Shown piece by piece: positions 757 through 62,769 of a stretch of DNA of 64,000 nt. Every line of letters begins with the position of its first letter. Position 1 is the first letter of the stretch. The DNA comes from Amoebophrya sp. A120 (lineage: Eukaryota > Protista > Dinoflagellata): NCBI GenBank assembly GCA_905178155.1, contig CAJINV010000004.1, positions 9,648,625-9,712,624 of the forward strand, in the 5' to 3' direction. Under the pieces are notes generated by a model. The model saw only the letters and a list, made by a program, of their open reading frames with translations, made no database searches and was not told the origin of the DNA. Both the position numbers and the translations under genes were made by a program.

Positions 757-929
757 GCATGAGAAATATCTGCGCTTCTTTGTGTTGCGTTTTTCGCATG
801 ACAAACTGCGTTTTTGCATGACAGGCAAAAGGCTCTCTTCTTGGACACGCATCACAAACTTTTTGGTCATGCCAGACAAGCACGACAAAGCTCGCAATCT
901 TCCAGACGCAGACACTTTTGCATTTGATA
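757..929. mobile_element. Right part of a family-A intron-like element; left TIR not seen
   Basis: Ends CTTCCAGACGCAGACACTTTTGCATTTGATA, followed by exon CCACAAT (HNSH). Internal sequence resembles 2380-2545. Confidence 0.75.
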
Positions 930-37000: not shown

Positions 37001-38330
37001 TCCTAGCATTTTCTCGGTGTGCTTGCGAAATCTCATTTCGCGGTCTAGCGTGATGCCTAGGAATTTTGGATGCGACTCATACGGCAGCTCGGTGCCCGCT
37101 CCGCTGTGCGTGTACAGCTTCAGCTCCTTCTCCTCTTGTTGGAACACCCGCTGGAGCACCGTCAGTGTGCACTTCGTGGGTGAAAGCGACATGTTGTTCC
37201 GCCGGCACCAGTCGTGTAACCGGTCCAGCGCCGCCTGTAGCTTTCTCTCTGCTTCTTCGGGATCATCGTACTCGACCGAGATTGCGAGGTCGTCCATGTA
37301 CAAGAAGACCTCGCATCCCGTGCCCTCCAATACTTCCGCGAGCTCGAAAAAGTCGCAGAAAACCGTGGGCCCGATGACCGTCCCCTGTGGTACTCCTTGC
37401 GGGATTTTGTGCACCTCGCTTCGCCCTCCTGCGTACTCGACGACCCTTGTGCGGTCGCCGCAAAAATTCCGCGTCCACCTGACTAGCAACGCGTGTTCTG
37501 CTCTTTTGTCCTCCGGGAGGCGCGCGCCATTCTTTAACGCGTGGCGCGCGTACTTGTGCCTGTTCACTCGGTCGAAAGCGGTCTCCAGGTCGATCAGCAC
37601 CAAAGCTCTGCGCTTGCCGGCGCGGAACGTCTTCTGTGCCCTCGCGGAGAGCGTAGCGACGTGCTCCGCCGCCCCTCGGTGCTTGCAGTCGCCGTACTGC
37701 AGGTGGGAGCGCACGGGGGTCCCTGCTTGTGCAAACAGCAGCCTTGTGCGGTTTTGGACGCATCGCTCTAACAACTTGGCCAGGATTGGCGTCAAAGCTA
37801 CTGGGCGGTAGGAGCTCGGTTTGTCGACCGGTTTGGACGGCTTCAGCAGTGGCTTCAGCAGCTCCCGCTTCAGTGTTTGCGGTGTTCCCCCTGTGTTCAC
37901 ACAGTCGGAGAAAAAACCGCGAAGGAACTTTTTTCCTGCTGTGGGCAAGTTCTTAAACTGTGGCCCCTTTAGCCCGTCCGGGCCCCCCGCCGACGTTGAC
38001 GACTGCGAGACCAGTGCTGCTTCTATCTCGTCGAGCGTGAACTCGATCCGTGTGCTTGGCTTTATCTCCTCGTTGAAGATTTTCTCGGCTTCTCTTTTCG
38101 CGGTCTGCTCCTCTGCTTCGTCTAACGTCGGCAAGGAGGCGTAGTGCTTTGCGAAGACCGTCGGCAGCCCTGTGGCATGGGACTCGCCCCCGAACTTTAG
38201 CACTTTGGCCGCCCCCGTGACCGGTCTGCCGCCCGCTTCGAGTTCTCGCAACAGCTGGAAAGCGCCGCTCGTTGTTGCCTGCGCCTTCTCTGCTTTCTCC
38301 CGTAAGCTGTTCTTTATCTTTATGATTATG
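34097..38330 (-). mobile_element. 5'-truncated non-LTR retrotransposon (RT + RNase H + C-terminal Cys/His motif; I/ingi-like architecture)
   Basis: ORF 34163-38389 contains SAGGPDG, SSYRPVALT, LIDLETAFD, QGVPQGTVIGP, YMDD, KFLGITLD (RT); YTDGS, AE, TDSQS, KSH, GNEVADKLA (RNase H); CPFC..HLVQEC. No endonuclease domain seen upstream. A-run at about 34097-34108 on the minus strand may be the tail. Boundaries approximate. Confidence 0.9.
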
Positions 38331-38389
38331 ATCTCTGTGTAGTGAGTGTCATCCGTTATAGTATTTGTAGTCATTGTCTTTGTCATCAT
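34163..38389 (-). CDS. Reverse transcriptase / RNase H ORF of the non-LTR element
   Basis: 1408-aa open frame with the motifs above. The first ~25 aa and last ~430 aa look like non-conserved read-through. Confidence 0.85.
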   Translation of the reverse strand: MMTKTMTTNTITDDTHYTEIIIIKIKNSLREKAEKAQATTSGAFQLLRELEAGGRPVTGAAKVLKFGGESHATGLPTVFAKHYASLPTLDEAEEQTAKREAEKIFNEEIKPSTRIEFTLDEIEAALVSQSSTSAGGPDGLKGPQFKNLPTAGKKFLRGFFSDCVNTGGTPQTLKRELLKPLLKPSKPVDKPSSYRPVALTPILAKLLERCVQNRTRLLFAQAGTPVRSHLQYGDCKHRGAAEHVATLSARAQKTFRAGKRRALVLIDLETAFDRVNRHKYARHALKNGARLPEDKRAEHALLVRWTRNFCGDRTRVVEYAGGRSEVHKIPQGVPQGTVIGPTVFCDFFELAEVLEGTGCEVFLYMDDLAISVEYDDPEEAERKLQAALDRLHDWCRRNNMSLSPTKCTLTVLQRVFQQEEKELKLYTHSGAGTELPYESHPKFLGITLDREMRFRKHTEKMLGKLRRRMVAVRALARLPWTRTADVRVFYRLFCESLVRYGLGSYYFALPQKCKQELDRFHKQAARSILGLPRTTNGDCALHEAGLQPLENLAKEEAAALLARGMSREKTDPLREQVEAAAGQVDWVTAAADALRASALPEGCEVLAEPGALPQNGLSTVHAAKEAGRLTVRTTGTTDEELRQLTTAADVSLYTDGSVKDFQCAAAVVEDAWDRYREYGWATTSYGDSFDAERAALLGALATVAERPAGEVRTAVVVTDSQSNLEALQNPRIRDGSDLLLYETLRDALEKLGPAGHLSLVFTKSHRKVVDGNEVADKLATMAREQTDYTEVGARVTHRQAKREVARSLRQQKKKELQDRGKQTGGSKTCVTLRQVSNFAANPIDSVAHATRADEVAYSAARMGLLVSDITGRDYACPFCQGRTQSPPAATTAHLVQECPALQSLRVVDPSNPGEFRSAALQEDPCWGIEFIRLLRRALQPGGELDDDADWDSDTEDETQQRNAGAELFSANKAPPGLHPPLSPPQTHYRGRGAVEGAWGGPDRYSYCYSCLPTETSSAMNIRNFLHVPQDPASLAHYIPVQKPPQRDSRPAPHAAHLQSSRASWSRPCTPAQAHAHPHHPAAYPTSWTCSTTPEQSNPTNPRETPTRAPPGGGCPNRYSYHVIDAHHSLGLDVLQCPPLAVVALPSTTQVTYQPHQSLPLLPGNHIDSEPTCPSTDLHGSTQPRPAEDGHFGTPTGARRRLHATARRNGAHLRETRSGAPHGGGPPNRYNSNPQYSVACWYGMHGSLGGVVAPSPLHNIQVHPPYTNRTVSPHEHAGRRATTHRWTKGDTGRSTSAPSGPWRNHYIQRGAPPTRTWWPHASWTASTCGRHPGTIPERVPQGGGHPNRYNSTLYPCGAAWHGMQQYHAGPGARPPQNPQVNRHDAANGRTGWLWDDQGGNANRGTAGWI

Positions 38390-38506
38390 AAAGTGTGTTT
38401 TCTCCCCAGCGTTAGAAGATTTGTTTTTCTTGCATCGCCTTCGCCACTAGGGCGGTCTCGCAACGCAAGTATCGATCTACTTCGTTGTGCCTCAATATCA
38501 CTGAAA

Positions 38507-41500
38507 ATGGACCTCCGCACGAATTCGCTCCTCCAGGACAAGTACAAGTCCGGCTCCAAGGAGCAGCAGCGCCTCTTCGGCGAGCAGCGCCGCACGGATT
38601 TTCTGGAGAATGCCGCCGCGGACAAGCGGAGTCGCATCGTATCAAGTGTAAAAGTGTCTGGGTCTGGAAAAGTGTACTTGTCATGCTAAATCTGAACCAT
38701 ACAAAAATCTGTGTTGCATGATTACCAATAAAGCTGTTCACTTTTGAGAAGGCCGAGAGGCAGTTTCTCATGCGGAAAAGGCATGGTAAAGATCTCACAA
38801 AATCTGTGATGCTATGGCATGCATCACAGACCTCACACGTCATGCAAAACTTGCATCACAAATCTGGCAGCTTCCATATATCGATTCTCATAGTATAGCA
38901 GGTCTCTGGGGTTCTGTGTGATTCAGTCACGGATTTCCTGTCTGCTTCTATTACAGTTGTGAACGCAAAGTATGGTTGAAAAATATATAAGTGCCCGGGG
39001 ATGAAGAAATGCTCGCGATGTTTTCGCGGTTCTGACCCTATGCCGCTCCAGCGCCTGTGGAGGCTTGTTTCCCCAGTGATAATGGACAATGGCAATGTCG
39101 GTGCGGTTGTTTTAGCATCACAAATCTGGCATTCTTCCAGACCCAGACATTTTTGCAATCCATACATCGAACAGATGCGCAGAATGGCGTTCGAGCGGGA
39201 TGTATCCTGTGCAAAAGTATAGTACTCGTAGTAATCGCAGTCATGCATTACAAATCTTCAGCCCAAGGTAAAACAGCATTTACAAATTCCATTTGTCATG
39301 CTGAGCTAATTTGTCATGCGATTGATATATCATCGAGACCCACGGAGCTTTACCCGCTAGACCAGGATTCTCCCATGCGAGCACCTTCTTCGTTCCTCCA
39401 GGCTTTTCTCGGCGTCCTTGGTCGGACGCTCCTGTTCTTGGTTGAAGTTGGACCCCGTGTGGCGGTAGCAGCTTCTCCTTTGCCCTGCCTTAGTAGCTCG
39501 AGCCTCGTTGCACTTCGTAAACTCTGCTCTTCGTAAAGTGAAGTCGTCTGGTGTTTTGTTGTCTTACCTTAGTACGGTAACCCCTTCCCCGCCTGTGTAA
39601 AAAACATTAACTTCCCATGTCCCCTTGCTTTTCTCGACTAAACAGTTATACTGTTATTTTTCTTCTAATGCTTACTTCCGCTGCTTTTTATTTATCAGTT
39701 TTAGTAGGGCATGATGCCAAAAGGGACGGACTGCCCTTAGAACTCCCATGTCATGCGATTGATACTAGTACGATACTTTTGCAGTTCATAGGATGCTGAC
39801 CAGCAAAGAGGGGGCTCATCTGCGAGGCAAGAAGTAGATCTGGAAGACGACGAGGACGACGACGATGAGGAATTCAGTACGATATCCGATATAATTGCGA
39901 CGTCGCAAGATCATGATCAGCAGTTGTTGTATGACAATCAAGATCTTTCTTCACCAAATGGTCGTATGCCGTCGTCCTCTCAGGAGCCTCTTCGAACAAA
40001 GCACAGGCACAACTACGACGAGGATGAGGACGATTTCGATTTCGACATGCATGAAAATTACGGTGCAACTACATCAAGACACAACTATCGCAACAGAAAC
40101 AACGGCACTTACAACAACGCCCGATCATCAAGCAGCAGAAATCCCAAATCCCTAGCCGCCACGGCGAAAAACAAGGCGAAGAAGCGATTTCGCGAGTTCA
40201 GTCAGGCGTTCATGCAGCCCGACTGGCTTCTCCCCGCCCCCGAGGTGATACCCGCGGATTTACTCGGGAACAGCAGTGGCACAACTGGATCGTCCTCGAA
40301 GAACGCCTCCCCCGGGGGCTGGTTCTGCTGCGTCCGCCCGGAGGGCGACCGAGTGATGATCTTCAGCGACGGGGGGCACACGCAAATTCGGCGCAGAAAC
40401 GGTACGGTGTTGCAGCAGTGGTTCCGCGACACCCGGTTTCCGAAAGGGCAGACGATTTTAGACGGCATTCTGGACTTGACCGCGGCGAATTTGGGTGGCG
40501 GTGACGCTGTTCTGAACAAAGATGGATCTACTTCCTCTAGTGCACCAATCGCAACTAGCAGCGGCATCATTTACGTTGTGGACGTGCTAGTGTGGGCCGA
40601 CGTCACTTTCTACGATGCGGAATTTGAGTTCCGGCACTTCTGGCTGCGATCCCGGCTCGAGGAACAGGATTGGGAGACCGAGATGCCAGTAGTGCCGATA
40701 TTATTGAACAACGGAGCTCTCGCTTCTGGCGGGTACCAGCAAGGAAATTTTGGTGGTGGAAATCAGCTCAAGAACTACCAGCAGTCGAGAAACAAACGGC
40801 GAAACAACAGGCGGCAGCAAAGAAAAAAGGACCAGCAGCAGCAGTTTCATCCAGGTGGAACAACCGCGCAAGATGGCAGCAACGATTCGTGGTGCGGTCC
40901 CAGTCCTCTAAACACGGGTGTTGTAGCTGCTGGTGGAGGCATGGAGGTCGACGAGCAAGCTGGTGCTAGACCTGCCGCAACAGCAGCAAACGGATCCTAT
41001 GCGAATGGACATTTGCCGGGTAATGGGAATGGAATGACCACCATGATAGGCCCTTGTGCGAAGCCGGCTGACGACCCGACTGTTGCAGGAAGTGGTACAT
41101 CAAATGGGGCAACTTCCATGATGGCCAACACCACCTCCTCCGCGGAATCGAAGCGCGCTAAGTATTTCCAAGCCCTGGCCACCGGCGCAATACATAACAG
41201 GCAGAAAGACGTGAAAAACCTCCAAATGACCGTTGACATGACACATCAAGCACAAGCTGCCCGTGGTCCAGATGAGCGATGTCATTCTAGCGTTACTATG
41301 AATGACGAAAACGACCTCTCCCTCTCCACAACCGCCACAAATCCACCTCGAGGCACGAACCCGCTGTACCCACTTGCCACCTTCAGCCTGCGTTTGATCC
41401 ACCAGCAGCAACTCTTTTCCCTCGACGACCTTCAAGCCCTCTACCGTTCCGCGCCTCCCTACGTGCACGACGGACTGCAGTTTTCGCACTCCCTCGGCCG

Positions 41501-43229: not shown

Positions 43230-45699
43230 ATGCCTCTCTATTCGAAGAATGGTAAGCGCATGGGCGCGGCCAGAACGGCGAAATTTTACCCCGACGGAGT
43301 AACGCCGAAGACCCAGTGCCCGCTCTTGAGCGAGGCGCGCCTCTCTCCCTGCCACCCCATGAACGATTCGCCCAACATTGACTACTTCGAGGGACGGCCC
43401 AAGCAGCCGGAGCCGCAGATTCTCGTGGCTGATGACCTGGGTTTGCTGAAGACCATCAGCACCACGGAGATCAAGAAAAAGGAGATTCAGCAGGTGTTTG
43501 GCGAAACGCGCAAGGGGAACAAAAATCAGGGAATTTCGGTTCTCGAGTGGCTGCCGGGGCACAAAGGGGTGGTGGTTGGGAGGACAAGTGGCGTGGTGGA
43601 GGTCTTCAAGTACCTCCCACCGGTGGTCGTCGCGAAAAAGAAATCGTACCGGCAGGTAGTGAAAAGTAGTATTGATGGTAGATCTTCTGTGGCATCCTCG
43701 AAGACGAAGCAAGGAGCGCCATCTTCATCGAGTAAAAACGCGTCGAGTTCTACTTCAAAGAGACCTGCAAAAGCCGATGTAGTGGAGATGGCCAGTGACG
43801 ATGAGGACGACAGTGAGGACGAAGAAGGCGAAACAACTCTGAAGAATGACAAGTTCTCAGAGGACGAGGAGCAGAGTGACGAAAAAAAACCGGCGAAAAA
43901 CAGCGAAGATAGCACGAATAAACCGAAAGAAGAGGAGCCGCAGGGGAAATTCGTCACAACGCCTGTCTTCAGTTTCGACTTAAAGCTCGCGCTGCACCCA
44001 AAGGACCCGACGAAGAATGAGAAACTGATCTTCGCAACTGGGTGCTGTTTCGAGAAGAAAGAGCAGATGAGCAAGCAGGAAGGAGCTACCACTAGCACAA
44101 CAGTACAGCTACGAGAAGAAGAACAAGACCATGCTGAACCGACGAAGCTTCTCGTTTTGTCCTCTCTGGGTAACGTGTGGATGCTGGACCTCGACATGGG
44201 TACTCTTCTGGCCGCCGCGGTGGAGGAAGATCAAGATGGTGACGACGCTACTACGAGCAAGAAGAAATACAATTACAAAAAAGCCGAATCCCCCTCCTCG
44301 AAGAAATTGTCCACCGGCGCGTCCGGTGCAACACCAGCATCAGAAGAACTACTGCACTTGAAACCCACCTTCACCTTACCCGGGACCTTTATTCAGCCGC
44401 TGGACAAGAAGTGGGCGACCTCGATCAAGCCGCGGCCGTGCGTGAAGGCCGCGTCCTTCCGGGAAGACGTAGAGCAGTTGGCGTACTGCGGGGTAGATAA
44501 CGATGTCCGGGTGTTCGACGTGCGGGAGCGGAAATTGGTGTGGAAGGCGAAAAACCTGCCGAACGATAAATTGGATCTCCAGGTCCCAATCCGCTACTCG
44601 AGGATACACTGGGCGACTGAGGTATAAAATCAGGAATGCTTTCGCTTTTTGTACAGAAAAAAAAAAAGAATTATGCACGATGCATGACAATGCAGGAGCA
44701 GGAAGATCAAGATGACCAATAGTACCATTTGCAATCCTCGAGCACGTCAAGAACGTTGTATTTGCAGATTCCCAGCAACACTGATAGCTTGTGACTTCAC
44801 AAAAAGAAAAAATCCTATATGCCCAGGCCCTCGACTGCGACACCGCGTTGGTGTGCTGCACGATGGACGGCAAAATCCGGGTTTTCGACATGAAAGCGAA
44901 GCAACTGCGCGCCCTGTTTGACCTCCCCGTCGTGTACAAGCGGGAACGATCCATCGGGCACGCGGGCGCCGCGGGGAAGGAGGAGAGACCGATTACCGCG
45001 TCGGTGTTGACCGACAACGGAATTCTGGCTGTGGGCGACACGGTCGGGAATCTCGATATTTTTGACTTGACCAAAACGAAACCGTATTTGACGGGAACGC
45101 CGGACTCCTTGCTTTTTCAGAACAAAATGGTCAAGGACATCCCCAAAATCGCCTCCATCGCCCATCACGAGTACGTCTGGAAGGGGCAGATCATCAAGTA
45201 CCTCGGTGCGTGTGCCCCCGAGGGATCCGCGATTCGATCGCTGTGCTTCATCCCGCAGACAAAGCAACTCGCGAGCGTCGGGCTGGGCCGGTTCGCGACC
45301 GTCCACAAGGCTTTGGAGTCGGATAAACGACGGGAACAGGATAAAAAGACGTACATGAAACAAAAACTTACCGCAGTCGTGGCGTTACCCCCGGTGGATC
45401 TGAGCAAGGTGAAAGTGGAAGGGGAAGGAGAAGCGGAGACGCAGAAAACGGATAATTCGAAAGCAAGAACTACACCCGCGTCGTCTTCAAAAAACACGGC
45501 GGCAACTACCACAGCCGATGCAGATGAACCTGGTTCAGACGGCGCGGAGGAGGAAGAGGAAGAAGGCCTGTTGAGCGATGACGATATTGTGTCTGAACTC
45601 AGCTACGGCAGCTACGTACAGGAGTTTGACGACGATGACGAAAGTTCAGAGGAGGTTGCCCCTCCGCCGAAGAAGAGGAGAAATAGGGGGAGAAAGTGA
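43230..45699 (+). CDS. NSA1: WD40 ribosome-biogenesis protein WDR74/Nsa1-like. Exons 43230-44621 and 44827-45699, one canonical GT-AG intron
   Basis: ILVADDLGLLK; DNDVRVFDV..VWKAKNLPNDKLDLQVPI; GDTVGNLDIFDL; GSAIRSL..LASVGLGRF; KTYMKQKLT. Donor GAG|GTATAA at 44622, acceptor CCAG| at 44826, in frame. Confidence 0.8.
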
Positions 45700-46573
45700 A
45701 TTAGTATGAAATCAGGATGATACATAGGTCGGTTTCCAAGCCCCTGTTGAGCATGCAGTAGGAACTTGTAAAGCTTGTTTGGGAACGAGATATCATCTTT
45801 CTACACTAGTACATGCTACATGACATTGACACGCATCGCCATAGAATTGCGCACAGCCACTTTTTCATATATTTAGAATAGAGATCTCTAGCAGAACGTC
45901 ACACATTGAAAGCGAATTTTAGTTGTTCCATATTGATATTGCTGGACAGGCCCTGGCGCTGGCGCTCATGGTACTTCTCGTCCAAATTATCCCCCTCTTT
46001 GGTCTTTCGTGTATTGCGATTGCAGTTGCACTCGTTTTCGTTCAATGAAAATTGTCGTCTTTCTGTATGCAAAAGGGTGTTGCGCCGTATGGACACCGAT
46101 GTTCGTTACCGTCGCCGATGGTGGTCAAAAATCATGTCGTGATGTTGACGCGCCTCGTAATATTCGTTCACTCCGGCAGTTCCGTGTTTCGTGCTCTTCT
46201 TGTCATCTTTCTTGTCGTTGTTCCTGCCATCTTCAAAACAAAAGGCGACTGCGACGGGATCCTGGAAATACGTACTTAAACATGGGTCAAGTTTGATATG
46301 AGTTTGAGTAAGCATCGTCCTCCTTTGCGTGCCAGTTCCCGCCTGAGCTGAAACTCCGACTCTCCCGTCGAACTCTTGTCTCGCATTCTGAAACATTTAA
46401 GTAGATAGACTTGTTGAAGTTGACTTTCCATTGTATATACGCAAACGCAATTCCAATTCTTCTTTTAGTGTCAGTGTCTTGTCGTCTCCAAATCGCTAGA
46501 TAATCGTACTAAAGGTAGAACTACAACAGCTGCCGTAGGGGTCGTGAATCTAGTAGTGCTCCCGAAAAAAAAA

Positions 46574-46954
46574 ATGGTCAAGAAGATCGCCGGCGCTGTT
46601 CTTGCGAACGCCGTTTGTGCGGGGGCGGTACTCGCATCCGCGACACCGACCGCCACGCATTCCTGGACTGGAAGTGAAACGTCGGGGTTTCTGCAGCAGA
46701 CTTACGCTAAGAAAAAGAAACAAGACGTCGATGGCACACCGAAAGCCTGCGACTACACCATCAAAGTGGACAAATTTTGCCCGTGGAGTCCGGAAACCGA
46801 TAATTTCTCAATCACCTGCGAGAAGTTCAAAGAGGACGATTGCACTGAAGGCGCTATTAAAAAGCGGGACAACGAGAAGAATGAGGGGTCAGAGAAGTAC
46901 ATGGAAAACGTCAAAACGAATGCCCGCTGTGCCTCTTGCGAGAATGTCTGCTAG
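46574..46954 (+). CDS. Small putatively secreted Cys-rich protein (126 aa)
   Basis: Hydrophobic N-terminus MVKKIAGAVLANAVCAGAVLASA; C-terminal ARCASCENVC; a paralog lies at 51868-53614. Confidence 0.7.
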   Translation: MVKKIAGAVLANAVCAGAVLASATPTATHSWTGSETSGFLQQTYAKKKKQDVDGTPKACDYTIKVDKFCPWSPETDNFSITCEKFKEDDCTEGAIKKRDNEKNEGSEKYMENVKTNARCASCENVC

Positions 46955-48232
46955 GTGCAGTAAGGGAATGGCGCGCGGCGAGGACGACTTCCTACACCTT
47001 CTCTCATCAATCGGGATTTTTCTTTTTTCGGAGAACGCACATACTTGCATTTGCTTGGTGACCTTCGGATACGCATTTTTATCCACAACTCTGCAGCTTT
47101 CTCCATTAAGCACGTCTCGGAACAAGAAGTACTCTTTTGCTTTTCTTTGAATGTTAGTTTTCGTAACGACAACAGGAACAGCCATGTCGACTTCTCAAGA
47201 TCGTGCGGTGTCTTCACAGTCAGAGGGACGCAGTGCCTCACGATTTTGGGATTAAAAGTCAAAAATTCATGTTTAATTTTTTTTCTTTTTATTTTTTGCA
47301 CATATTTGGTTTCGGAGTCGTGCCCTTTTTCTTCCTAAGTAGTCTGTTATCTTTTCCCCTTTAGATACTTCCTTTATATATATGTTTTCCACAGTCGTTG
47401 TACATCGTGGTTGTGCTTCCAGGTTCCTTCCACGTGTAGTAAGTTCCCATCCCGTTTCATATGGTATCGTTTTTGTAGTTTATTGTTATTGCTCCTAATG
47501 CTATAAGTACAAGTAGCTAATCCCTAACCCCCCCCCAGCACATCAACGCCCACGATCAAAGGAGTAGGTACCAGAATGCCCATGAATATTTGCAAAAACA
47601 GCAGTAGCTGCTCCCCGGTCTTTGCCCAGGAATAGAAATTCCATTGCATATCCTGCTCCCGATGAAATGCATCATAGTCGTCTGTTCCTGTAGTTGCACC
47701 CCATAGAAGCACGTCCCCGGCGGCATAGCCTGTCGCGTCACAGGAAACACGACATCCTCGACCCCCACATGACCCTTTTCCCCCGAAGCAACTTTCATCC
47801 CCCTCGAATTCCGTTCCACCTGGCCGGTACGTCGTGTGCATGGTAGTGTTCTTTCACTTCCGTGTCATTATCGTGTTTAGCCAAGCACGGCCGTGTTCCC
47901 TTGTCTGCCGATAGTTCGGAGGAGGTCGCTTCTCCGCTGGAGAAGAAAAAAAATAAGGGGAGAAAGTAAAGTTGCATGTGTAGAAGCATCTGTCTATGCT
48001 CGCCGAGGTTCATCATGCAAGAAAATCCACGCGCAACTGCAAAATCTTCGTAACGTCCTCACATCATGACGTGTTGAATTTATTTCTGCTCGCTCTGGAT
48101 CCTGTATGTAAGTATGATGTATTTCTGCGCGCTTGCTTTTTATTACTAACACCGTATAAGAAAACAAGCACAAGTGCCGTCGAAAGCGAAACTGCAACAC
48201 CGTACAGGCTGAGGCTAGGTCACATACGCATT

Positions 48233-48484
48233 CCCACTTGCAAATATGTGTGGGTCTGGAAACTTGTGATGCTAAAATGTGCATGATGGAAACACTCCCG
48301 AATGCAGTCCGGCATGACAACTTCCCAAAACGCTTTCTCATAGGCAATCCGCATAAGAAACTGCGTTTTTGCATGACAAAAGAGGCTGCGACTTTTGTTG
48401 GTTATGCAATACAGATTTTCTAGGTATGGAAAGCTAGCATTACAAGTTCCAACCTTCCAGACCCAGACACTTTTACAATCCATA
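48233..48484. mobile_element. Family-A introner with damaged left end, at the breakpoint of the partial Nsa1 duplicate
   Basis: Left CCACTTGCAAATATGTGTGGGTCTGGAA (no TAT, no matching DR); right CTTCCAGACCCAGACACTTTTACAATCCATA followed by Nsa1 exon CTGCG. Confidence 0.75.
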
Positions 48485-48977
48485 CTGCGGGGTCGATAAC
48501 GATGTCCGGGTCTTCGACGTACGGGAGCGGAAATTGGTGTGGAAAGCGAAAAACCTGCCGAATGACAAATTGGATCTCCAGGTCCCAATCCGCTACTCGA
48601 GGATACACTGGGCGACTGAGGTATAAAATCAGGAATGCTTTTGCTTTTTGTAGTAGATAGTTTAAAGAATTATGCACGATGCATGACAATGCAGGAAGAT
48701 GACCAATCTGTTGTAGTACCATTTGCAATGCTCGAGCACGTTAAGAACGTTGTTATTTATTTCGAATTTCCAGCAAAAGATAAAGAACTCATACTCGACT
48801 TCTCAAGAAATCCTGTATCCCCAGGCCCTCGACTGCGACACCGCGTTGGTGTGCTGCACCATGGACGGCAAAATCCGGATTTTCGACATGAAAGCGAAGC
48901 AACCGCGGGCCCTGTTTGACCTCCCCGTCGTGTACAAGCGCGAACGATCCATCGGGCACGCGGGCGCCGCGGGGAAG

Positions 48978-49242
48978 TATCAACTGTAAAAATGTCTGGG
49001 TCTGGAAGATTCTGACACTTGTCACGCACGTTTTGCATGAGCCATAATGTCTGTGATGCATACCCTAGCAATACAGATTTCTTGAGGGCTTCTTGATGCC
49101 TATCCCGCATGACAAATGCCTCCTCAGCGTAGGAAAAATTGCATTCCCTACTTTGGTACTCATGCAATACAGATTTTTTTGGAATCCAAATGCAGCATCA
49201 AAAGTTGCATTCTTCCAAACCCAGACATTTTTACATTTGATA
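48978..49242. mobile_element. Introner family A (reverse orientation), DR GGAAG
   Basis: TATCAACTGTAAAAATGTCTGGGTCTGGAAG / CTTCCAAACCCAGACATTTTTACATTTGATA; the empty site in intact Nsa1 has one GGAAG. Confidence 0.95.
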
Positions 49243-49305
49243 GGAAGGAAGAGAGACCCATTACCGCGTCGGTGTTGACCGACAACGGTATTCTGGCTGT
49301 TGGCG

Positions 49306-49454
49306 TATGAATTGCAAAAGTATCGTACTCGTATAAATGCATTACAAATTTCCTCAGCATGAGAAATAAAATTTGTAATGCGGATTTGCCTCAAGAAGAA
49401 GATTTGTAATGCAAGACTTGCATTTATACGAATACGATACTTTTGCAATGCATA
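49306..49454. mobile_element. Introner family B, DR TGGCG
   Basis: TATGAATTGCAAAAGTATCGTACTCGTATAAATGC / GCATTTATACGAATACGATACTTTTGCAATGCATA; empty site present in the intact copy. Confidence 0.95.
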
Positions 49455-49588
49455 TGGCGACACGGTCGGGAACCTCGATATTTTCGACTTGACCAAAACG
49501 AAACCCTATTTGACGGGAACGCCGGACTCCTTGCTTTTTCAGAACAAGATGGTCAAGGACATCCCGAAAATCGCCTCCATCGCCCACC

Positions 49589-49858
49589 TATGGAAACCAA
49601 AAATGTCTGGGTCTGGAAGATTGCAACTTGTAATGCTGTCTTTGGATTCCAAAAAAATCTGTATTGCATGACCAGCGACAGGACTCCAGTTTGTGTTACG
49701 CGGAGAGGGCATTTCTCATGCGGAATAGCCATTAGGAAGCCCTCTACAAAAACAAATCTGTGTTGCTAGATCATGCATTAGAGCAGGCATCAATCATCAT
49801 ACAAAATATGCATGACAAGTCTGCATCCTTCCAGACCCAGACGTTTTTGCATTTGATA
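49589..49858. mobile_element. Introner family A, DR CCACC/CCATC
   Basis: TATGGAAACCAAAAATGTCTGGGTCTGGAAG / CTTCCAGACCCAGACGTTTTTGCATTTGATA; empty site GCCCATCAC. Confidence 0.95.
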
Positions 49859-50091
49859 CCATCACGAGTACGTTTGGAAGGGGCAAATCATCAAGTACCT
49901 CGGTGCGTGTGCCCCCGAGGGCTCCGCGATTCGATCGCTGTGCTTTATCCCGCAGACAAAACAACTCGCGAGCGTCGGGCTGGGCCGGTTCGCGACCGTC
50001 CACAAGGCTTTGGAGTCGGATAAACGACGGGAACAGGATAAAAAGACGTACATGAAACAAAAACTAACCGCAGTCGTGGCGTTACCTCCGG

Positions 50092-50303
50092 TATGGAGAG
50101 AAAAAAGTTTGTCACAGTCACTAACTTGCTCTTGCAGGCTTTGCATTACAAATTTTCTCAGCATCACAAACTTTCCATGTATTGCAGAAACACTAGGGAA
50201 ATCCCTAATGAAGTTTGGCTGTGATGCATTTTTACGCATGACAAACAATTTTGCGTTGCAAGAATGCGCATGAGTGATCGTGACGAACTTTTTTTCTTTG
50301 ATA
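50092..50303. mobile_element. Introner singleton family, DR TCCGG
   Basis: TATGGAGAGAAAAAAGTTTGTCAC / GTGACGAACTTTTTTTCTTTGATA; spliced product reads LPPVDL as in the intact copy. Confidence 0.93.
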
Positions 50304-50364
50304 TCCGGTGGATCTGAGCAAGGTGAAAGTGGAGGGGGAGGAAGCGGAGACGCAGAAAACGGAT

Positions 50365-50643
50365 TATCCTGAGTAAAAATGTCCCCACACCAGAGTCAAG
50401 ATGGGGATTTTGCAACACAAACCTAGAACTTTTGGGGGTCACGCATCACAAGTTGCAGTCCGTAGTGTAGTGCATGTTCGCAAGGCCAGCTGCATCAGAA
50501 ATCCATCTGCTCATCCTGTTTACAGCATTACAAATTCCAAAACACAACTAAAAATGACTCTCCTGGCGATGCGCATTACAAATGTTCCTGTCATTGCAAA
50601 TCTGCATGACAACTCTGGTGCGGGTACGTTTTTACTCAGGATA
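50365..50643. mobile_element. Introner family C (reverse orientation), DR CGGAT/CGGAC
   Basis: TATCCTGAGTAAAAATGTCCCCACACCAGAGT / ACTCTGGTGCGGGTACGTTTTTACTCAGGATA. Confidence 0.95.
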
Positions 50644-51867
50644 CGGACAATTCGAAAGCAAGAAGTACACCCGCGTCATCTTCAAAAAACACGACGGCAA
50701 CTACTGTAGCCGATGCAGATGAACTTGCTTCAGACGCGGAGGAGGAAGAGGAGGAGGAAGGGATGTTGAGCGATGACGATATTGTGTCTGAACTCAGCTA
50801 CGGCAGCTACGTGCAGGAGTTTGACGACGATGACGAAAGCTCGGAGGAGGTCGCACCTCCGCCAAAGAAGAAGAGAAATAAAGGGAGAAAGTGAATTAGT
50901 ATTGCATCAAGATGACAGCTCGACGGTTGCCAAGCCCCTGAGCATGCAGTAGCAGTTGTAGAACATTGAAGATAAGATCTTTATCTTTCTTGAAAGCTTC
51001 TCTTTCTGCACGTGACATTCTTTGTGCACATTGACGTTTTTCTGTTTGTTCTCTTTCGCATTTTGTCGTCATCTAATGTTGAAACTGAAAATATCATGAT
51101 TATCATTTTATTTTTATTATGCTGCATATTCACTACCCTGCCTCTGTAAGTGCATCGCAGGCCGTGTTCCTGATCGTGCTCGTGCAAGTATAGATTATGG
51201 TCTTCGTCGTTCGCTTTTAGCCCAACTGGCAAACTCGTTCACTGGAAGTGGTCAATGACGATGCTCTTCTTGCTGCATGATGAAAGGCAGTGTGCATAGG
51301 ATAGCTTTGCACCCGCGAACAACGTGATCCGTTTCTATTATTGACGCCCATGGGCAATAATATCGTGCGTGCCATCATCTTCGTCCAAGTTGACAGTACA
51401 ACTGCTTCGTTCTCATCTTTGTCGTGGTTCTTACTGTATTAAGGAAGAAGACGGCGACAATGATTGCGGCTCCGGCTCGATCCGGAATATATAGATTTAA
51501 TAAGCACGTAGTTGGCCAGCATGGATTAGCAAAATTAATAAAAAAATCTGACAACAGCAAGTTGAAGAGCAGCGCATATGCTGAGCTTGAGTTTTTAAGA
51601 TATAACTTCGTCCTCGTTCTTTATTGCGTCACAGTTCCCGCTATTTCAACGACTCCGAGTCCCGCAGATTCTAACTCCTCGCTCAGTCCTCAAATACAGT
51701 CTGTCAGGTGAAACTATACGCAAAACCAGAAGTAGTTGTAACACTAGTACGGTCTGCTCGTTTTCAGGCCGCGACCTTCACTCGACAAATTGGTGCCGCA
51801 AGGTAAAGAATAAAAAAAGCCGTAGTTCTACTAATTGCTCTGAGTCTAGCGCTCCCAATAGCAGAAA

Positions 51868-53614
51868 ATGGTCAAGAAAACTACCAGCGCTGCTCTTGCA
51901 ACCACCCTCGGGGGGGGGGGGGGTGCTCGCCGCTGCGACGTCGCGCACGCATTCGTGGACCGGAAGTGAGTATGGCCCGCCCAGGTGTCACATTGTCAGG
52001 CGTTACCGTCAGAGTCAGAGTTTATGACGTTGCAATCACCGGAGCACAGAAAGAGATGTTGAGAAGCATTATTATTACGCTTAACGGCTTTTTTTTTTGC
52101 AAAACTAGCACTACACCAATCCCGTACTAAGCGGATTACCAAATACGTCGAGCAACCCAACGGCGTCCCGGCTGTATAAAAGAAATTCAGTGTTTTGCAA
52201 AGGTTGAGGCTCTTTGAAGTATTGGAATAGGCGAGAGTGTAACGCCTGAGCGGGCCATAATGAAACGTCGGGCTTTCTGGAGGTGAATGGCAAGGCTGAC
52301 GCTGCGAGCGTCTGTCAATATATGTCCCCCCTGATGGAGGGTGGGATATTTGCAACGGATGTAGGCCAACCCGGTAAGTAGTACCTCTACTAGAATTTAG
52401 TACGCGTGCTCAAGAATTAGCTCATGAATAGCTCCTCCAGCTGCACACCTAAAGTTCTGGAACGCCTGGATGGAGGGGCGCAGGTTCATCGATAGCCGCC
52501 TCTACTAGTGCAATAAGCGTGGTCAACTTTTAGCTCATGAAAGCTCCAGCTGTACTCTTGACGTTCTGGAACGCCACCACCCTCCGCCCGCAGCCGAGCC
52601 GAGCCGTCAAGCTCTCCACTTTTAAAGTTGCGACACTCCTAAAGTTCCGAGCACTCTTAAAGCCCCGCCCGCAGCCGAGCACTCCTAAATTTCCGACACG
52701 CCAAAGTGCCCCATGTTATGCTTATGCTATGCTAAATGTAAAATTCTGATCATCTGACTCAGGGCGGTACATAACTAAGTAGTCAAAGGTTTGTTTCTGT
52801 TTGTACTCACCTTATATTCCAGGCGCCCCCGAAACGGCAAAAAACAGCAAAAAACTGATCGGTTTATTGCATTCAGAAACCCCAGCGAGGGAGTGTGGGT
52901 GGCGCGCCAGAGCGGTGCGCCCGCATTGCGTCGGGCTTGCGGGCGAAGCCGCTGCGGGTAGTCGGAGTCGAGAATCTCGACCCGGGCCCAAAGTTGTTGA
53001 GAATCTCGACTCCGATGGCCCCCAAACCGCATAAGGAATTTAACTTCTTTGCCCACGGGCTGGAATCTGAGAGAAGAGTCGCCGCTTTTGCGAACCCGGG
53101 AAGAGATTGCCGCTTCAAGAAAGTTGAAGACTTGTCGTGCGAAGTAGGGGCCGGCAGGTGAAGGCCAATCGATCCCGAGCAACAGCGGCACTCCTAGGCT
53201 AAGACGGAGGCCGCTGACCCTTTTTTCCTCGCAGCCCGCGGGCCGTTTTTTTGTTTCATTATGTCCTCCCATACTAGCCATACATTTACATTATAGGAGG
53301 TTTGCTACTTCATATTACATACAGGGCCGATGCGCGAAACGGGAAACATGTGGCCGTGGCCCGTGGGTGGAGGTCTTCAGAAGACAACAACCTGCATCAA
53401 GTTCAAGAAGCAGAAGGACGAAAAGAAGTGCCCTTCAAACGAAGATAACAAGTTGACTACATATTCTTCTTTTGGTCATACATCTGCCCTTTTCAAAGCC
53501 GAAGAGTCGTCGAGCAGTGCCAATTACGCGGCCATCACTCTGATGCTTCAAGAGGATGTCGATTTCTTGGCCAGATGTCTGATGTGCCCGGATCTGTGCA
53601 AGGATAGCGCTTGA
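51868..53614 (+). CDS. Paralog of the small secreted Cys-rich protein. Exons 51868-51970, 52265-52373, 53325-53614; +1 frameshift in a G14 run
   Basis: MVKKTTSAAL..THSWTGSETSGFL..C..WPW..TCIKFK..C..ARCLMCPDLC aligns with 46574-46954. Canonical intron G|GTAAGT (52374) to ATACAG| (53324) is in frame. Confidence 0.7.
51971..52259. mobile_element. Introner singleton family, imperfect DR GTGAG/ATGAA
   Basis: TATGGCCCGCCCAGGTGTCACA / TGTAACGCCTGAGCGGGCCATA; the empty site GGAAGTGAAACG is in the paralog at about 46670. Confidence 0.88.
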
Positions 53615-55811
53615 GTCTCGTACTTTCGTTCTTTTTTTTTTCGGTTTATTCTGGTTGACGTTGATCAACAACAAGTACGTTTATATTCGAAAAAGTACCA
53701 AAACCTTTATCACAAAAGTAGAAGTACTTCAAAAAAGTTATACGTAGTACAAAACACAAAACCAAAAGTTAAAGTAACAATATCAGCCAGCTTTGAAGAT
53801 TTTCAGTACTGTAGCCAAATTTCAGGCAACGTCGCGAATATGTTGTCTTCGCCCACAGTAGCGCAGAATAACTCTGTGTGGCTTTCCGTTCTCATGATTA
53901 TGGTCTTTCACTTTGCTTGAATATGAATTTGTTTTTGTAGGAGCGTCTAGGTTTTTTTTCATCGTCACATCATAAAGTGCAAAGTCAAAGTTTCCCCACC
54001 GATCGAAAAGCAGATTTGAAAAGCTATAAACCAACGGAAAGTAGACACCTTCCAAACAGATGTTGGAGGGAGCACGCTGCGTGTTTCGACTCTGTTTTAA
54101 CTCAGTCTTGCTTGACTCGAAGATTTAAGAAAACCCCCTTCCCGATTGCATGCATGTCTACAACATGATAGGCGGACGCGAAGCCTTGACCTTCTTCGGC
54201 ATAAAATCCAAAAAAAAAAAATATAAAAGCAATGCTGTAGAAGGTAGAGTTTCAGTATTCGTTTAAAGAACGCATTGGCGTATGCGTAGCAAACTCTTAT
54301 AATTTTTCATCTTTTCATCCCCTTGCCTTTAGCAATACTTACTTTAATGTTTTCCACAGTCGTTGTACATCGTGGTTGTGCTTCCAGGTTCCTTCCACGT
54401 GTATTAAGCCCCATCCCGTTTCATAGGATATTGTTTTTACTTATTTATTGTTATTGCTCCTAATGCTATAAGTACAAGTAGCTAATCCCTAACCCCCCAG
54501 CACCGCAACGCCAACGATCGAAGGAGTACCAGAATGCCCATCAATATTTGGAAAAAGAACAGTACCTGCCCCCCGGCCTTTGGCCAGGAAGAGGAATTCC
54601 ATTGCATATCCTGCTCCCGATGAAATCTGTAGCGTAGTCATCCGCTCCTGTGGTTGCACCCCATAGAAGCACGCCCCCGGCGGCATAGCCTGTCGCGTCA
54701 CAGGAAACACGACATCCTCGACCCCCACATGACCCTTTTCCCCCGATGCAACTTTCATCCCCTTCGAATTCCGTTCCACCTGGCCGGTACGTCGTGTACA
54801 TGGTAGTGTTCTTTCACTTCCGTGTCATTATCGTGTTTAGCCAAGCACGGCCGTGTTCCCTTGTCTGCCGATAGTTCGGAGGAGGTCGCTTCTCCGCTGG
54901 AGAAGAAAAAAAATAAGGGGAGAAAGTAAAGTTGCATGTGTACTAGAAGCATCTGTCTATGCTCGCCGAGGTTCATCATGCAAGAAAATCCACGTGTAAA
55001 CTCTTCGTAACGTCCTCACATCCTGACGTGTTGAATTCATTTTTGCGCGCTCTGGATCCTGTATGTAAGTATGATGTATTTCTGCGCGCTTTCTTTTTAC
55101 TACACCGTATAAGAAAACAAACACAAGTGGTGCCGTCCGTCGAAAGCGAAACTGCAACACCGGACAAGCTGAGGCTACATCCCGTACGCATTCTTCTTCG
55201 TCCCGTCGGACTGAGTTTTGGTCCTGTAAAAATATCTTCAAGAAACCGCTTCGTGAATCGTCCCTCCTCAAAGAAATCGTTCAACTTCGCACTTTTGTAG
55301 TACGTCCAGTTTACCTCGTACACCTTTTCCGTGTGTGATGCGTTTGATGAAACTCGTTCGGTACTACAGAACGACAGCAGTGGTCGGTCAACTTGTATTC
55401 ATCTCGTTTACTGCAGCGGACCACGACGAATTGCTTCTTCAATTATATTCCTCCTGTCACTTTCCCTGTGAATTTTCAGGCTCAGGCACCATCTCGGTCG
55501 CATTTATGCTCACCTCGTACTGGCGATAATTAAAGTATTTCTTCAGCACGTCGGTTGTCCTTGTCTGTTTCGATTTCCTCGGTGTGCTTTTAGTACCATT
55601 ATCCTACGACCTCTACCTCCGCTCGGTTTTGTTTTGGTTGGTCCCGAACCAACTTTGCTTCCTCACAAGTAGCTTCGGTTTGAAATCGAAGCTGAACATC
55701 TTCAATCTGTAGTACGTGTCAACTACCATCAAATTACTAGACGTTACAACATATACGACCACTATCTACATGTTTGCTTTTTACCAAGTTGGTAAGTACC
55801 ACCCGCCCAAA

Positions 55812-58800
55812 ATGGTTTTCTCCACGATCCGCACAGTGACCAATTTTACCCAATTTGTCCTGAAAGACCTCCCCGCGTCAGTCATGGTGGGCGCGGCGGC
55901 AACAGCACTGTACTTCGCGGAGGTACAGGCGGCGCTGAAAGTTGCGGGCGTGATGATCGGCGCGAACCCGCCGCTCGCGGCGTTATGCGCCTTCTTCGCG
56001 GTTGTGTTTTCCACCATTATCCTGTGCAAAAGTATCGTACTCGTAGTAATCGCAGTCATGCATTACAAATCTCCATGCCAAGGTAACACAGCATGACAAA
56101 TTTCATTTGTCATGCTGACCGAATTTGTAATGCGATTTCTACTAGTACGATACTTTTGCAATGCATAACCATGGCGGTGCTGCAGTACAAGGGCGATTTC
56201 GACTTTTTCTACTTCGCCAGGTATCAACCGTAAAAATGTCTGGGTCTGGAAAAATGCAACTTGTCATGCTCAATCTGAAGCATGCAAAAATCTGTGTTGC
56301 ATGATTACCAAAAGTCGTCCAGTTTTGATCAAGTCGGGAGGGAGTTTCTCATGCAGGATAGGCATGAGAGAGATCGCACAGAATCTGTCGTGCTAGGTCC
56401 TGCATTGCAGACCTCATGGGTCATGGAAAAGCTGCATGACAAATCTGACAATCTTCCAGACCCAGACACTTTTGCAATCCATACCAGGACGCGCGTCCGG
56501 AAGGACTACTACGACAGCATCGCGGAACTGGACTTTGACGGCTTTTACCAAACCATGCAATTGGACTACGAGAATTTGGTGAGATGGGTGTCAGAAAACG
56601 GAAACTACGTTTACACCGTATCCTATGTAGAAACGTCCCCACCCCATAGTTGTCATGCGGGTTTGCAATGACAGGAACATTTGTAATGCGAACCTACATG
56701 AGAGGAATTTCCCATCGTGTTTTGAAATTTGTAATGCCGTAAACAGGATAAGAAGGTGGGTTTGTGATGCGACTGTCCTTGCTAAGCTGCACTACACTAC
56801 AAAGACAAACCTGTCATGCATGGCTCCGAAAACTCCTGGATTTGTGTTGCCGAGTTCCCAACTTGACTATGGGGTGGGGACGTTTTTACATAGGATACAC
56901 TGTCGTGTCCGCAAACGTTTTGGATTTGTATTACTACCTTCTCGTCGATTTCGGGTTTATCCTGAGTAAAAACGTACCCACACCACAGTTGTAATGCAAA
57001 TCTGCATGCTGAAAATGTTTCTCATGCGGAGCCCCATGAGAAGCATTTTCCAATCGTGTTTTGCAATTTGTCATGCTCCAATCAGCATGGTCAGATAGAT
57101 CTGTGATGCTGCTGAGCTAGCTCAAACAGCACTACAATACGAATCCAAATTTGTCATGCAAAACAGCTAAAACTTGTGGATTTGTCTAGCCGATTCCCCA
57201 TCTTGACTCTGGTGTGGGTACGTTTTTACTCAGGATAGGGTTGCCGGTTTTGTTAGGCGCCATGGCGCTCGGCTCCGTCCTCGGCGTGGTGGGTCTGTAT
57301 GTACTCTTTGTCGGGCTGCGAAGGATGGTTTTTGGAAGAAATAAGGTTAATGTTCAACAGCACCCAAATTATGCACAGTTGATCGACGGCGCAATTTCTA
57401 GCAGTTCTGTTGGTGTTACTCTTCCGCAGATGACACAGATGAACAGATCCGGAAAGATTGCGAAGCCGAAGGAATCCGTGTCCATCCGCTCCCCGAATCT
57501 GTTAGCTCCTCCGAGTAGAAGATCTTCGAAAGAGAGTGTGACAAACATAAGTCCGCGTCCGGTTGACAGCAAAATGAATTCCGCACGACCGGTTTCCCCG
57601 ACCGCAACCTCGAGCCGCGCGTCTCCGCCAGGCAGTCCCCGCCGGCGTGTGTCCCGCACTGAGGCGGAGTACGAGCAGGACCAGCTCCTTACGCCCTACG
57701 ATGCGCAAGTGCTTTCGCCAACAGGGAATCAACCGAAGGACCGGTTTAAAAACCGGCTTTCCTCCTCGTCGCGGTCGCCGTCCCCCGTGGCTCGCGGCGG
57801 ATCCAAATCCTCCGAACGGAGTTCCAAGGGGAAGGGCGGGCTGGGCCGGAGCAGATCCCCTGTACCGGGGGCGGTGGATCCCTCGTCAAAATCGGAGAAT
57901 GATGAGTTGAATTCGAGCAGAAATCTATTGGAACAGTTGCAGCGAAAATCCGTGACCAAGACGGATTTGGAGTTCAAGGAACAGTCCACCGCACTGCAGC
58001 AAATTGGGGAGTACTTGGACCGACTGACGATGAGTGCCTTCAACTCCGGCCCCTTTGGAGGGATATCAAATGCAAAAATGTCTGGGTCTGGAAGATCGCA
58101 ACTTGTCATGCTAAATCTGATTCATGCAAAAACTCTGTGTTGCACGATTACTACCAACAGCCGTCCTTTTTTACCAAGTTGAGAGAAAATTTTTCATGCA
58201 GAATAGGTATGATAGATTTTTCACAGAATTTGTCATGCTTGGCACTGCATTCCAGACCTCATGGGTTATGTAACACCTGCATGACAAACCTTCCATTCAT
58301 CTAGACCCAGACATATTTGCAATCCATAAGGGAACAAGAAGCACAAGCAGCTGGTGAACCCGTACTACGTGCACCCGGCTTCGTATGGATGTGTCAGAGT
58401 TGAAATCGACAAAGTTGAAATGATTTGTCATGCATAAAATGCGACACAGAGACTGACTCTATTGCTGAAGGCGCAAGGGAGGCAGATTCTAGTGCTGGTA
58501 AGGGTCAAGCATTGGGCTGCTGACTAGCATGACAGGGAGCAGCCATCTTGCCCTAAACAGCATGACAGACTTGCTTCAGAGGCCAGGAAAACTTGTCATG
58601 CGCCGATTGATAACTGTGGGTCCAACTGGTATAGATTTCATGCATCGCAAATTATTTCAACTTTGTTAATTTCAATCCTGACAGTTCCATACTTCGGATT
58701 TGCCCGGGCAGAAATCGAAAAAGTACGACTTTGTGCAGCCGAAGTCGATTCAAATGGCGGAGCAGATCCACCAAGAGGCGGCTGAGAAGAAAGCGATGGA

Positions 58801-61646: not shown

Positions 61647-61794
61647 TATAACTCCTATTGCTGAGCAGGGGCAGTTAAAATTTTGCAACAGGGAGGAAAA
61701 TCGTCCACGCCGAAAATTTTTTTACAATTTTCAAACTTTCCAAATCTCTCGCGATTTGGGAAGTCGCCCAACGCCCAACGCCCAACGCCCAACG

Positions 61795-62600: not shown

Positions 62601-62769
62601 GGTCGCTCGGATCTGCGCGGTCGCGTGGCACTTCCTTACTGAAATCCCTAAGGAAAAAAAAACTTCAGCTGATCGCGCGTCCGAGGAGAGCAACGCGATC
62701 AGGCAGCCGAAGCCCGAAGGTGGCGATCGCATCCCTGCAAGTTGTACGCACGGGGATTGTCGCCTGTCC

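What the first reader, a model, noticed from the sequence alone, without database searches (positions are those of the whole stretch)
43230..50894. Natural filled/empty experiment: Nsa1 copy with no introners next to a paralog with six, both keeping the canonical intron
Seen: over about 1 kb of shared exon, the paralog has elements at 48233, 48978, 49306, 49589, 50092 and 50365 (four TIR types). The intact gene has a single copy of each 5-mer (some with a synonymous difference), which shows the DR is a target-site duplication. Both copies keep the GT-AG intron, so the empty copy is not a retrocopy. Exon differences are mostly synonymous. Inference: either a very dense burst of insertion in one copy or precise DNA-level loss of all elements from the other.
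Basis: partly seen in the sequence, partly recalled or inferred. Interest (0 to 1): 0.8.

Follow-up and report, generated by a model that had tools for sequence, protein, structure and literature searches.

The report
Intron-packed half-gene beside its empty twin
In a marine parasite of algae, a whole ribosome-assembly gene with no mobile introns sits next to a second copy of its rear half that carries six; the empty sites show that these elements duplicate five bases where they land, and they likely jumped in while that copy was still a working gene.

Summary
Real, with corrections. The window is Amoebophrya sp. A120. Gene A (Nsa1/WDR74-like, 754 aa) has one GT-AG intron and no introners. The paralog B' is only the 3' half (codon 420 on). 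Five of its six elements are complete, with 5-bp direct repeats that are single at A's empty sites; the first is broken at its left end, which is the junction of a tandem duplication [Nsa1 3' half, small secreted-type gene Y, segment Z]. Y repeats the filled/empty contrast (7:0 over the unit). DNA contigs cover both copies and both flanks at similar depth and bridge the junction. B' is transcribed and its five complete elements are spliced out. dN/dS is 0.08 (0.02 in the WD40 part, dS 0.16), so B' was a working gene until very recently. The elements look younger (about 2-4% from relatives, rough) than the A/B split (8-10% per branch), favouring gain in B over loss from A. Whether B was an allele from a diverged lineage or an old paralog is open. 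A120 introners are published, and filled/empty logic is known; the scan noted a single-intron case in another genome.

The parts
43230..45699 (+). Gene A: full Nsa1/WDR74-like WD40 gene, 754 aa, exons 43230-44621 and 44827-45699, no TIR elements
   Evidence: Translation identical to annotated P0002; best PDB match WDR74, E 2.7e-5
44622..44826 (+). Canonical GT-AG intron of A (205 bp)
44486..45453 (+). Six empty sites in A: single 5-mers at 44486, 44975, 45033, 45162, 45390, 45449
46574..46954 (+). Y1: 126-aa Cys-containing ORF with a hydrophobic N-terminus, no element, empty site at 46674
   Evidence: RNA-type contig 46334-47411; no usable Atlas hit
47358..48233 (.). Z1: orphan copy of 54326-55193, ends at the duplication junction; holds an older remnant of the Nsa1 3' end (about 47895-48020)
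48232..48484 (.). E1: family-1 element with broken left terminus and no left direct repeat; junction of the tandem duplication; its 3' end is retained in spliced RNA-type contigs
   Evidence: DNA contig 48105-48268 with 0 differences, RNA-type contigs from 48454
48485..50894 (+). B': 3' half of Nsa1 (codons 420-754), open frame after splicing, dN/dS 0.084
   Evidence: annotated model P0005
48621..48824 (+). Canonical GT-AG intron of B' (204 bp; 27 mismatches in 187 aligned bases to A's)
   Evidence: spliced joint in 3 of 3 RNA-type runs laid
48978..49242 (.). E2, family 1, 265 bp, direct repeat identical on both sides
49306..49454 (.). E3, family 2, 149 bp; both repeats share one synonymous difference from A
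49589..49858 (.). E4, family 1, 270 bp; repeats differ at one base
50092..50303 (.). E5, family 3, 212 bp; both repeats share one synonymous difference from A
50365..50643 (.). E6, family 4, 279 bp; repeats differ at one base
51868..53614 (+). Y2: diverged counterpart of Y1, with a TIR element at 51971-52259 and about 1 kb more of inserted sequence
54326..55193 (.). Z2: counterpart of Z1 that runs on into unique sequence

Best explanation
A whole introner-free Nsa1-like gene lies in tandem with a second, spliced copy of its rear half that carries six MITE-like introners, which likely inserted into that copy after it split from the first and while it was still a working gene, and the two likely came together recently when two diverged alleles were joined at the broken end of one element. 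Shown: each complete element plus one 5-bp repeat is exactly what B' has in excess over A; B' is 5'-truncated at E1; its five complete elements are absent from RNA-type contigs that carry B' letters; dN/dS is far below 1. Inferred: a transposase-type staggered cut made the 5-bp repeats (0.95); both copies are in one genome (0.9); gain in B rather than loss in A (0.75); an unequal join of two alleles, which left one whole Nsa1, two versions of gene Y and two orphan ends, rather than an old paralog later cut back (about 55:45). B' now likely makes no working Nsa1: it lacks the front half of the propeller and its first in-frame AUG after E1 is at about codon 479.
For: Empty sites match 32-35 of 35 at 5 of 5 complete elements and 31 of 35 at Y. 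WD40 part: 25 synonymous, 2 non-synonymous changes in 241 codons; at both, B' shares its residue with outgroup proteins (I483 with 2 of 2, P491 with 1 of 2), so they likely arose in A. About 44 such changes would be expected had B' been neutral throughout; 95% bound on neutral time 0.005-0.011 per site. So the elements did not pile up in a dead copy. Age: 25 places in 1,428 bp of E1-E6 differ from the majority of relatives among the 40 of 125 rows shown, and run X1 lists 57 places over the whole stretch, about 2-4%; direct repeats differ at 2 of 25 bases in B' and 7 of 130 in the window; the split is 8-10% per branch at synonymous sites, 7% in the intron. DNA contig depth 25.5, 29.0, 31.8, 24.5 and 27.9 on left flank, copy 1, copy 2 (twice) and right flank; junction contig 128 + 35 bases, 0 differences, depth 37.8 against 42.8. 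For alleles: one event explains two undecayed orphan ends, the 7:0 contrast ends at the junction, and divergence is 6% in Z, 16-35% synonymous in Nsa1, barely or not alignable around Y. A sexual stage is proposed for A120 (10.1101/2025.04.10.648098, passages).
Against: Dating is rough: only pieces 90% or more alike were laid, X1's table was flagged incomplete, hairpin constraint could slow the elements, and nearest family members inside the window are only 76-84% alike for E2, E3, E4, E6. The repeat clock has a wide interval (0.007-0.22 for B'). No close outgroup was found to polarise E3 and E5. Alleles 16-20% apart at silent sites are unusual, and gene flow between ribotypes is reported as low, if any (PMC7018713, passages). 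Elements of the same families lie 8 kb left of the junction (38640-39790), so the left side is not an element-free lineage. An older Nsa1 3' remnant in Z shows earlier duplication here, which suits the paralog rival. Why one copy took six and the other none stays unexplained. The DNA runs may be the assembly's own source, and contig depth is no copy number.
Confidence: 0.42

Rival explanations
1. Old tandem paralogs. A block with the whole Nsa1, Y and the gene to its right was duplicated long ago, both Nsa1 copies stayed functional, B gained the elements, and one recent deletion ending at E1's left end removed B's promoter and front half.
For: Same gain evidence as the best explanation. An older Nsa1 3' remnant sits in both Z copies (score 84-85 against a shuffle maximum of 31-33). 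A120 is reported to have 185 conserved tandem duplicates (PMC7789003, passage). Deletions next to transposon ends are general knowledge (recalled).
Against: Needs two events and long, equal purifying selection on two copies; needs gene conversion to explain 6% divergence in Z and 14% in the intron beside spacers at 30% or unalignable; leaves 7:0 between copies a few kb apart to chance (0.016 at equal exposure).
Confidence: 0.3
2. Loss from A. The elements were in the common ancestor and were removed from A at DNA level, by precise repair between the direct repeats or by conversion from a cDNA that lacked the introners but kept the canonical intron.
For: One conversion event would explain 6:0 at once; long element-free ORFs lie beside dense genes in this window; A has no footprint at any site. 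Not excluded by any outgroup.
Against: Elements look 2-4 times younger than the split. The canonical intron lies between E1 and E2, inside the tract. Y1, a separate transcript, is empty too. At E3 and E5 both repeats share a base that differs from A, slightly more likely under gain (my estimate 1.7:1, weak).
Confidence: 0.2
3. Assembly artefact: two haplotypes or strains were joined through similar elements at E1.
For: The junction is at a repeat; the same window holds a false-looking 9,640-bp inverted duplicate of this region; no listed contig spans E1 end to end.
Against: Similar depth on copies and flanks; contigs run unbroken over A's front half (to 44597) and past Z2's end (55062-55600) with 0 differences, so neither orphan end shows a second continuation; no annotated B-type front half among proteins of 195-623 aa; the paper describes cutting chimeric joins with Nanopore reads (PMC7789003 section 23).
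Confidence: 0.06

Closest known systems
Amoebophrya A120 introner elements (Farhat et al. 2021, PMC7789003; abstract, passages, sections 11, 12, 16, 23 and supplement legends read)
   Same: TAT start, seven less conserved bases, then an A run; inverted repeats, 3-5-nt direct repeats (5 bp in legend S19), hairpins, non-canonical splicing; genes with canonical introns only beside genes with many elements.
   Different: In the parts read, the paper shows no empty site for a direct repeat, says gain cannot be told from loss for A25/A120 orthologs, and argues against general transposase mobilisation. This locus gives 6 empty sites with both repeats present and a close pair (dS 0.2) that can be dated.
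TIR DNA-transposon introners of A120 and other species (Gozashti et al. 2025, PMC12130899; 2022, PMC9860276; passages read)
   Same: A120 introners assigned to diverse TIR transposons, tens of introns in single genes; an empty ortholog from another isolate is used as comparison for another species.
   Different: Their screen filters out paralog-borne similarity; no filled/empty pair within A120 appears in the passages read. SI figures on TSDs were not seen.
MITE introners of Micromonas and Aureococcus (Huff et al. 2016; not read, known from the review PMC11282704 passages and recall)
   Same: Non-autonomous TIR element, target-site duplication, removal of element plus one repeat restores the frame.
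   Different: Three-base TSD and spliceosomal sites there (Micromonas); here 5 bases and no fixed GT-AG ends.
Dinoflagellate introner-like elements (Roy et al., bioRxiv 10.1101/2020.10.14.339549, passages read)
   Same: Many families, TSD-flanked, ongoing gain.
   Different: Reported gain is of the order of one per kb per unit dS; B' would be about 60 per kb per unit dS if all six are gains on a 0.1 branch.

Membership tests
A120 introner elements | Inverted repeat of 8-20 nt at both ends, TAT start and A run | tested here: met
   E2-E6, 2-8 mismatches in 30 bases; E1 met on the right end only
A120 introner elements | Direct repeat of 3-5 nt at the borders | tested here: met
   5 bp, 0-1 mismatch in 5 of 5 complete elements; absent on the left of E1
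A120 introner elements | Repeated in the genome | tested here: met
   Window relatives for E1-E4 and E6; contig depth in the thousands at inner positions of all six against about 27 for unique DNA
A120 introner elements | Spliced out of the transcript | tested here: met
   RNA-type contigs with B' letters cross the E2-E4 sites (475 nt, 15 differences to A, no gap) and E5-E6 sites (257 nt, 20 differences, 3-base gap, two runs); annotated P0005 agrees. Exact cut points not seen. E1's 3' end is retained
A120 introner elements | Hairpin joining the two ends | tested here: met
   Predicted only: ends paired, z -5.6 to -9.5 against 30 mononucleotide shuffles each
MITE / TIR DNA transposon | Direct repeat is a target-site duplication (single at the empty site) | tested here: met
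   5 of 5 complete elements in B' and 1 in Y2
MITE / TIR DNA transposon | Cognate autonomous element or transposase | not testable with these tools
   No genome held for this window
Nsa1/WDR74 | Sequence match to WDR74/NSA1 | tested here: met
   Best PDB hit WDR74 E 2.7e-5, yeast NSA1 E 0.08; Pfam gives only sub-threshold WD40 models. Function untested
Processed retrocopy (gene A) | Loss of all introns | tested here: not met
   A keeps its GT-AG intron and its flanks
Decayed pseudogene (B') | Stops, frameshifts, dN/dS near 1 | tested here: not met
   Open frame, dN/dS 0.084, Fisher p 2e-17; truncated but undecayed

The most novel reading that the evidence does not exclude
A120 holds, side by side, two alleles of one conserved ribosome-assembly gene from lineages about 20% apart at silent sites: one gained six introns per kb under full purifying selection, the other none, and an introner end was the breakpoint that captured both versions of the neighbouring secreted-type gene. 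Introner load would then be a property of the haplotype, segregating within a sexual population, and not of the gene, and the genome would be a mosaic of dense and empty blocks.
Probability: 0.3. Interest if true: 0.8.

Novelty: new member of a known kind. Interest (0 to 1): 0.55.

Why it matters
A120 introners are published, but the only compared genome (A25) is about 40% identical in this protein and has other element families, so gain, loss and the nature of the direct repeat could not be read off directly. This pair gives six empty sites and a common protein under the same constraint. It supports a transposase-type insertion, which the genome paper doubted, and shows that dense versus empty genes are not set by gene function alone. 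The same test can be run on every close duplicate in the genome.

Tried and rejected
Whole genome: none held, so no genome-wide element ages. Outgroup DNA: none in metagenome contigs by protein (257 pattern matches, 0 confirmed) or by a degenerate motif (0). Sequencing runs: no RNA holder listed on record; the one raw-read RNA run laid (X9, 1 of 3 offered) gave 141 reads, on elements and next to none elsewhere, so it served neither as outgroup nor for splice points. Of 11 runs listed, 6 different ones were laid. In one search the joint table was swamped by DNA repeats. Y1 was queried in a wrong frame in the Pfam scan and the representative search, so those blanks say nothing; in the right frame it is not in the collection as an exact sequence and has no usable Atlas hit. 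One search also missed the known distant homolog P0004, so it speaks only to close copies. Rejected: elements piling up in a dead copy (dN/dS); A as retrocopy; B' as only an alternative last exon spliced to A's first exon (B' exon-1 remainder has 6 synonymous and 0 non-synonymous changes and appears in RNA-type contigs); E1 as a clear chimera of two elements (thirds gave no clear switch against 9 window relatives; not excluded); sequence after the old remnant being a third spacer copy (score at shuffle level). Parts of Z1 without RNA cover (47740-48000) prove nothing. Literature searches listed no paper on a filled/empty pair in Amoebophrya; subscription papers and SI figures were not seen.
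Full report
Organism and gene. The spliced translation of 43230-44621 plus 44827-45699 is 754 aa and is identical to an annotated protein of Amoebophrya sp. A120. Two other homologs were found at 40% and 38% identity (3 of 7,447 candidates). The best solved-structure match is WDR74, E 2.7e-5, with yeast NSA1 at E 0.08; Pfam gives only sub-threshold WD40 models. Nsa1-like is a fair name; function is untested.

The elements. E2-E6 lie at 48978-49242, 49306-49454, 49589-49858, 50092-50303 and 50365-50643, with terminal inverted repeats and 5-bp direct repeats. Removing one element and one repeat matches A at 33, 32, 33, 34 and 35 of 35 bases. With all five and the canonical intron removed, B' reads as one open frame of 334 aa whichever repeat copy is kept. 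The elements fall into four types and fit the published A120 introners (PMC7789003 section 11). A finder for such elements gave 26 in the window outside the inverted duplicate, 0-1 in each of 10 shuffles. So the direct repeat is a target-site duplication at 5 of 5 complete elements.

B' has no front half: tblastn finds codons 1-418 once in the window. E1 has a normal right end followed by the Nsa1 5-mer, but its left end lacks the conserved first bases and the direct repeat and abuts segment Z1. Z1 (47358-48233) is a copy of 54326-55193. The region is thus a tandem duplication of [Nsa1 3' half, spacer, gene Y, Z]: copy 1 at 44484-48233 is attached to the true Nsa1 front, copy 2 at 48233-55193 to the true continuation of Z. 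Y2 has a further element at 51971-52259 whose site is empty in Y1 (31 of 35), making 7:0 over the unit. Both Z copies hold an older remnant of the Nsa1 3' end.

Is it real? In DNA run X1 the long unique contigs have depth 25.5 (left flank), 29.0 (copy 1), 31.8, 26.7 and 24.5 (copy 2) and 27.9 (right flank), with 0 differences. Two merged haplotypes would be expected to halve depth inside the copies. In run X2 a 164-base contig bridges the junction with 128 and 35 bases, 0 differences, depth 37.8 against 42.8. Contigs run unbroken over A's front half and beyond Z2, and no close annotated front half of 195-623 aa was found. Limits: these runs may be the assembly's source, depth is no copy number, and no listed contig spans E1 whole. 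The 9,640-bp inverted copy at 21745-31384 is 100% identical, N-flanked, has a 68-bp overlap of its flanks and does not double depth; it is likely a scaffolding error, and it explains the two accessions of P0005.

Expression. Three runs guessed to be RNA show the B' canonical intron spliced. One contig of X3 is B'-type with 0 differences up to the E2 site and crosses the E2-E4 sites on A without a gap, with 15 differences where 17 are predicted and 2 read as A. Contigs in X3 and X8 cross the E5 and E6 sites with 20 differences and the 3-base gap of B' (21 predicted by my alignment), at depth 10.3 and 10.1 against 5.8 and 19.2 for A. Spliced contigs start inside E1 at 48454, so its 3' end is retained, and there is low cover at 48001-48219; strand and start are unknown. 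The annotated model P0005 has my B' sequence behind an unrelated 85-aa start read from another frame of the Y1 region.

Selection. Over 335 codons dS is 0.20, dN 0.017, ratio 0.084; in the WD40 part (241 codons) 25 synonymous and 2 non-synonymous changes, ratio 0.023. At both changed residues B' agrees with outgroups. A neutral B' would show about 44; the 95% bound on time without selection is 0.005 per site, or 0.011 if both changes are charged to B'. B was therefore a working gene for nearly all of its history and was cut very recently.

Gain or loss. Against relatives laid at 90% or more, E1-E6 differ from the majority at 25 places in 1,428 bp among the 40 of 125 rows shown, and X1 lists 57 places for the whole 12.6 kb: about 2-4%, biased low and flagged incomplete. 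Direct repeats differ at 2 of 25 bases in B' and 7 of 130 in the window, an age near 0.04-0.06 with wide limits. The split is 0.08-0.10 per branch at synonymous sites and 0.07 in the intron. Younger elements cannot have been in the ancestor, so I put gain at 0.75. Against this, in-window relatives are only 76-84% alike and no close outgroup was found. A's emptiness is not odd in itself: ORFs of 4.3, 2.6 and 1.6 kb here have no element, while two other genes have 12 in 2.8 kb and 6 in about 2.3 kb of exon. B' (6 per kb) is an ordinary dense gene. What is informative is that the same protein occurs in both states.

Origin of the pair. Divergence is uneven: 5.8% in Z, 14% in the intron, dS 0.15-0.23 in the WD40 part, 0.35 in the tail next to the spacer, about 30% in the spacer, no alignment behind Y, and weak similarity of the mature Y proteins (1 of 500 shuffles reached the score). 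Only Y is whole in both copies. An unequal join of two diverged alleles gives this in one step. An old three-gene duplication with conversion and one recent deletion at E1 gives it in more steps but needs no wide cross. The window cannot separate them; I lean 55:45 to alleles. A sexual stage is proposed for A120; gene flow between ribotypes is reported as low.

Known and new. The elements are known (PMC7789003; PMC12130899 passages), as are TSD-flanked introners and empty-site comparisons in other species. Six searches listed no filled/empty pair in Amoebophrya; SI figures and subscription papers were not seen, and Huff 2016 was not read. The scan has no other notes on this genome and one single-intron case in another genome (not tested). 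Verdict: a real and useful natural comparison of a known element class, with a truncated second copy, likely gains, and an open origin. Interest 0.55.

Noticed in passing
window 21745-31384: 100% identical inverted copy of 45254-54893 between N gaps; the 68 bases before the first gap recur after the second and are themselves a near-palindrome; depth is not doubled. Likely scaffolding error that duplicates gene models.
   Followed up: partly
window 47895-48020 and 54860-54985: Older remnant of the Nsa1 3' end and start of its 3' UTR; on the minus strand it reads as a short ORF with a hydrophobic, signal-like start in both copies.
   Followed up: partly
window 46574-46954 and 51868-53614: Y1 and Y2: small Cys-containing, secreted-type proteins with similar leaders and strongly diverged mature parts, both covered by RNA-type contigs; Y2 has a run of 14 G that shifts the frame (contigs break there, so possibly an assembly error) and about 1 kb of insert with repeats at 52283-53320.
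   Followed up: partly
window 38640-39790: Two compound (apparently nested) elements of 525 and 588 bp just ahead of an element-free 859-codon ORF with a Snurportin m3G-cap-binding domain (Pfam E 3.6e-14).
   Followed up: no
window 55813-61650 and 750-4950: Two element-dense genes (12 and at least 6 elements of several families), against long element-free ORFs such as 34166-38446.
   Followed up: partly
window 54976-55800: Minus-strand ORF fragment with RNA-type cover at 55209-55600; probably a gene whose 3' part lies in Z and was cut in copy 1.
   Followed up: no
window 61790-62600: Tandem array of a 17-bp unit that also matches its own reverse complement, followed by a diverged repeat of about 130-140 bp at 62760-63360.
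   Followed up: no
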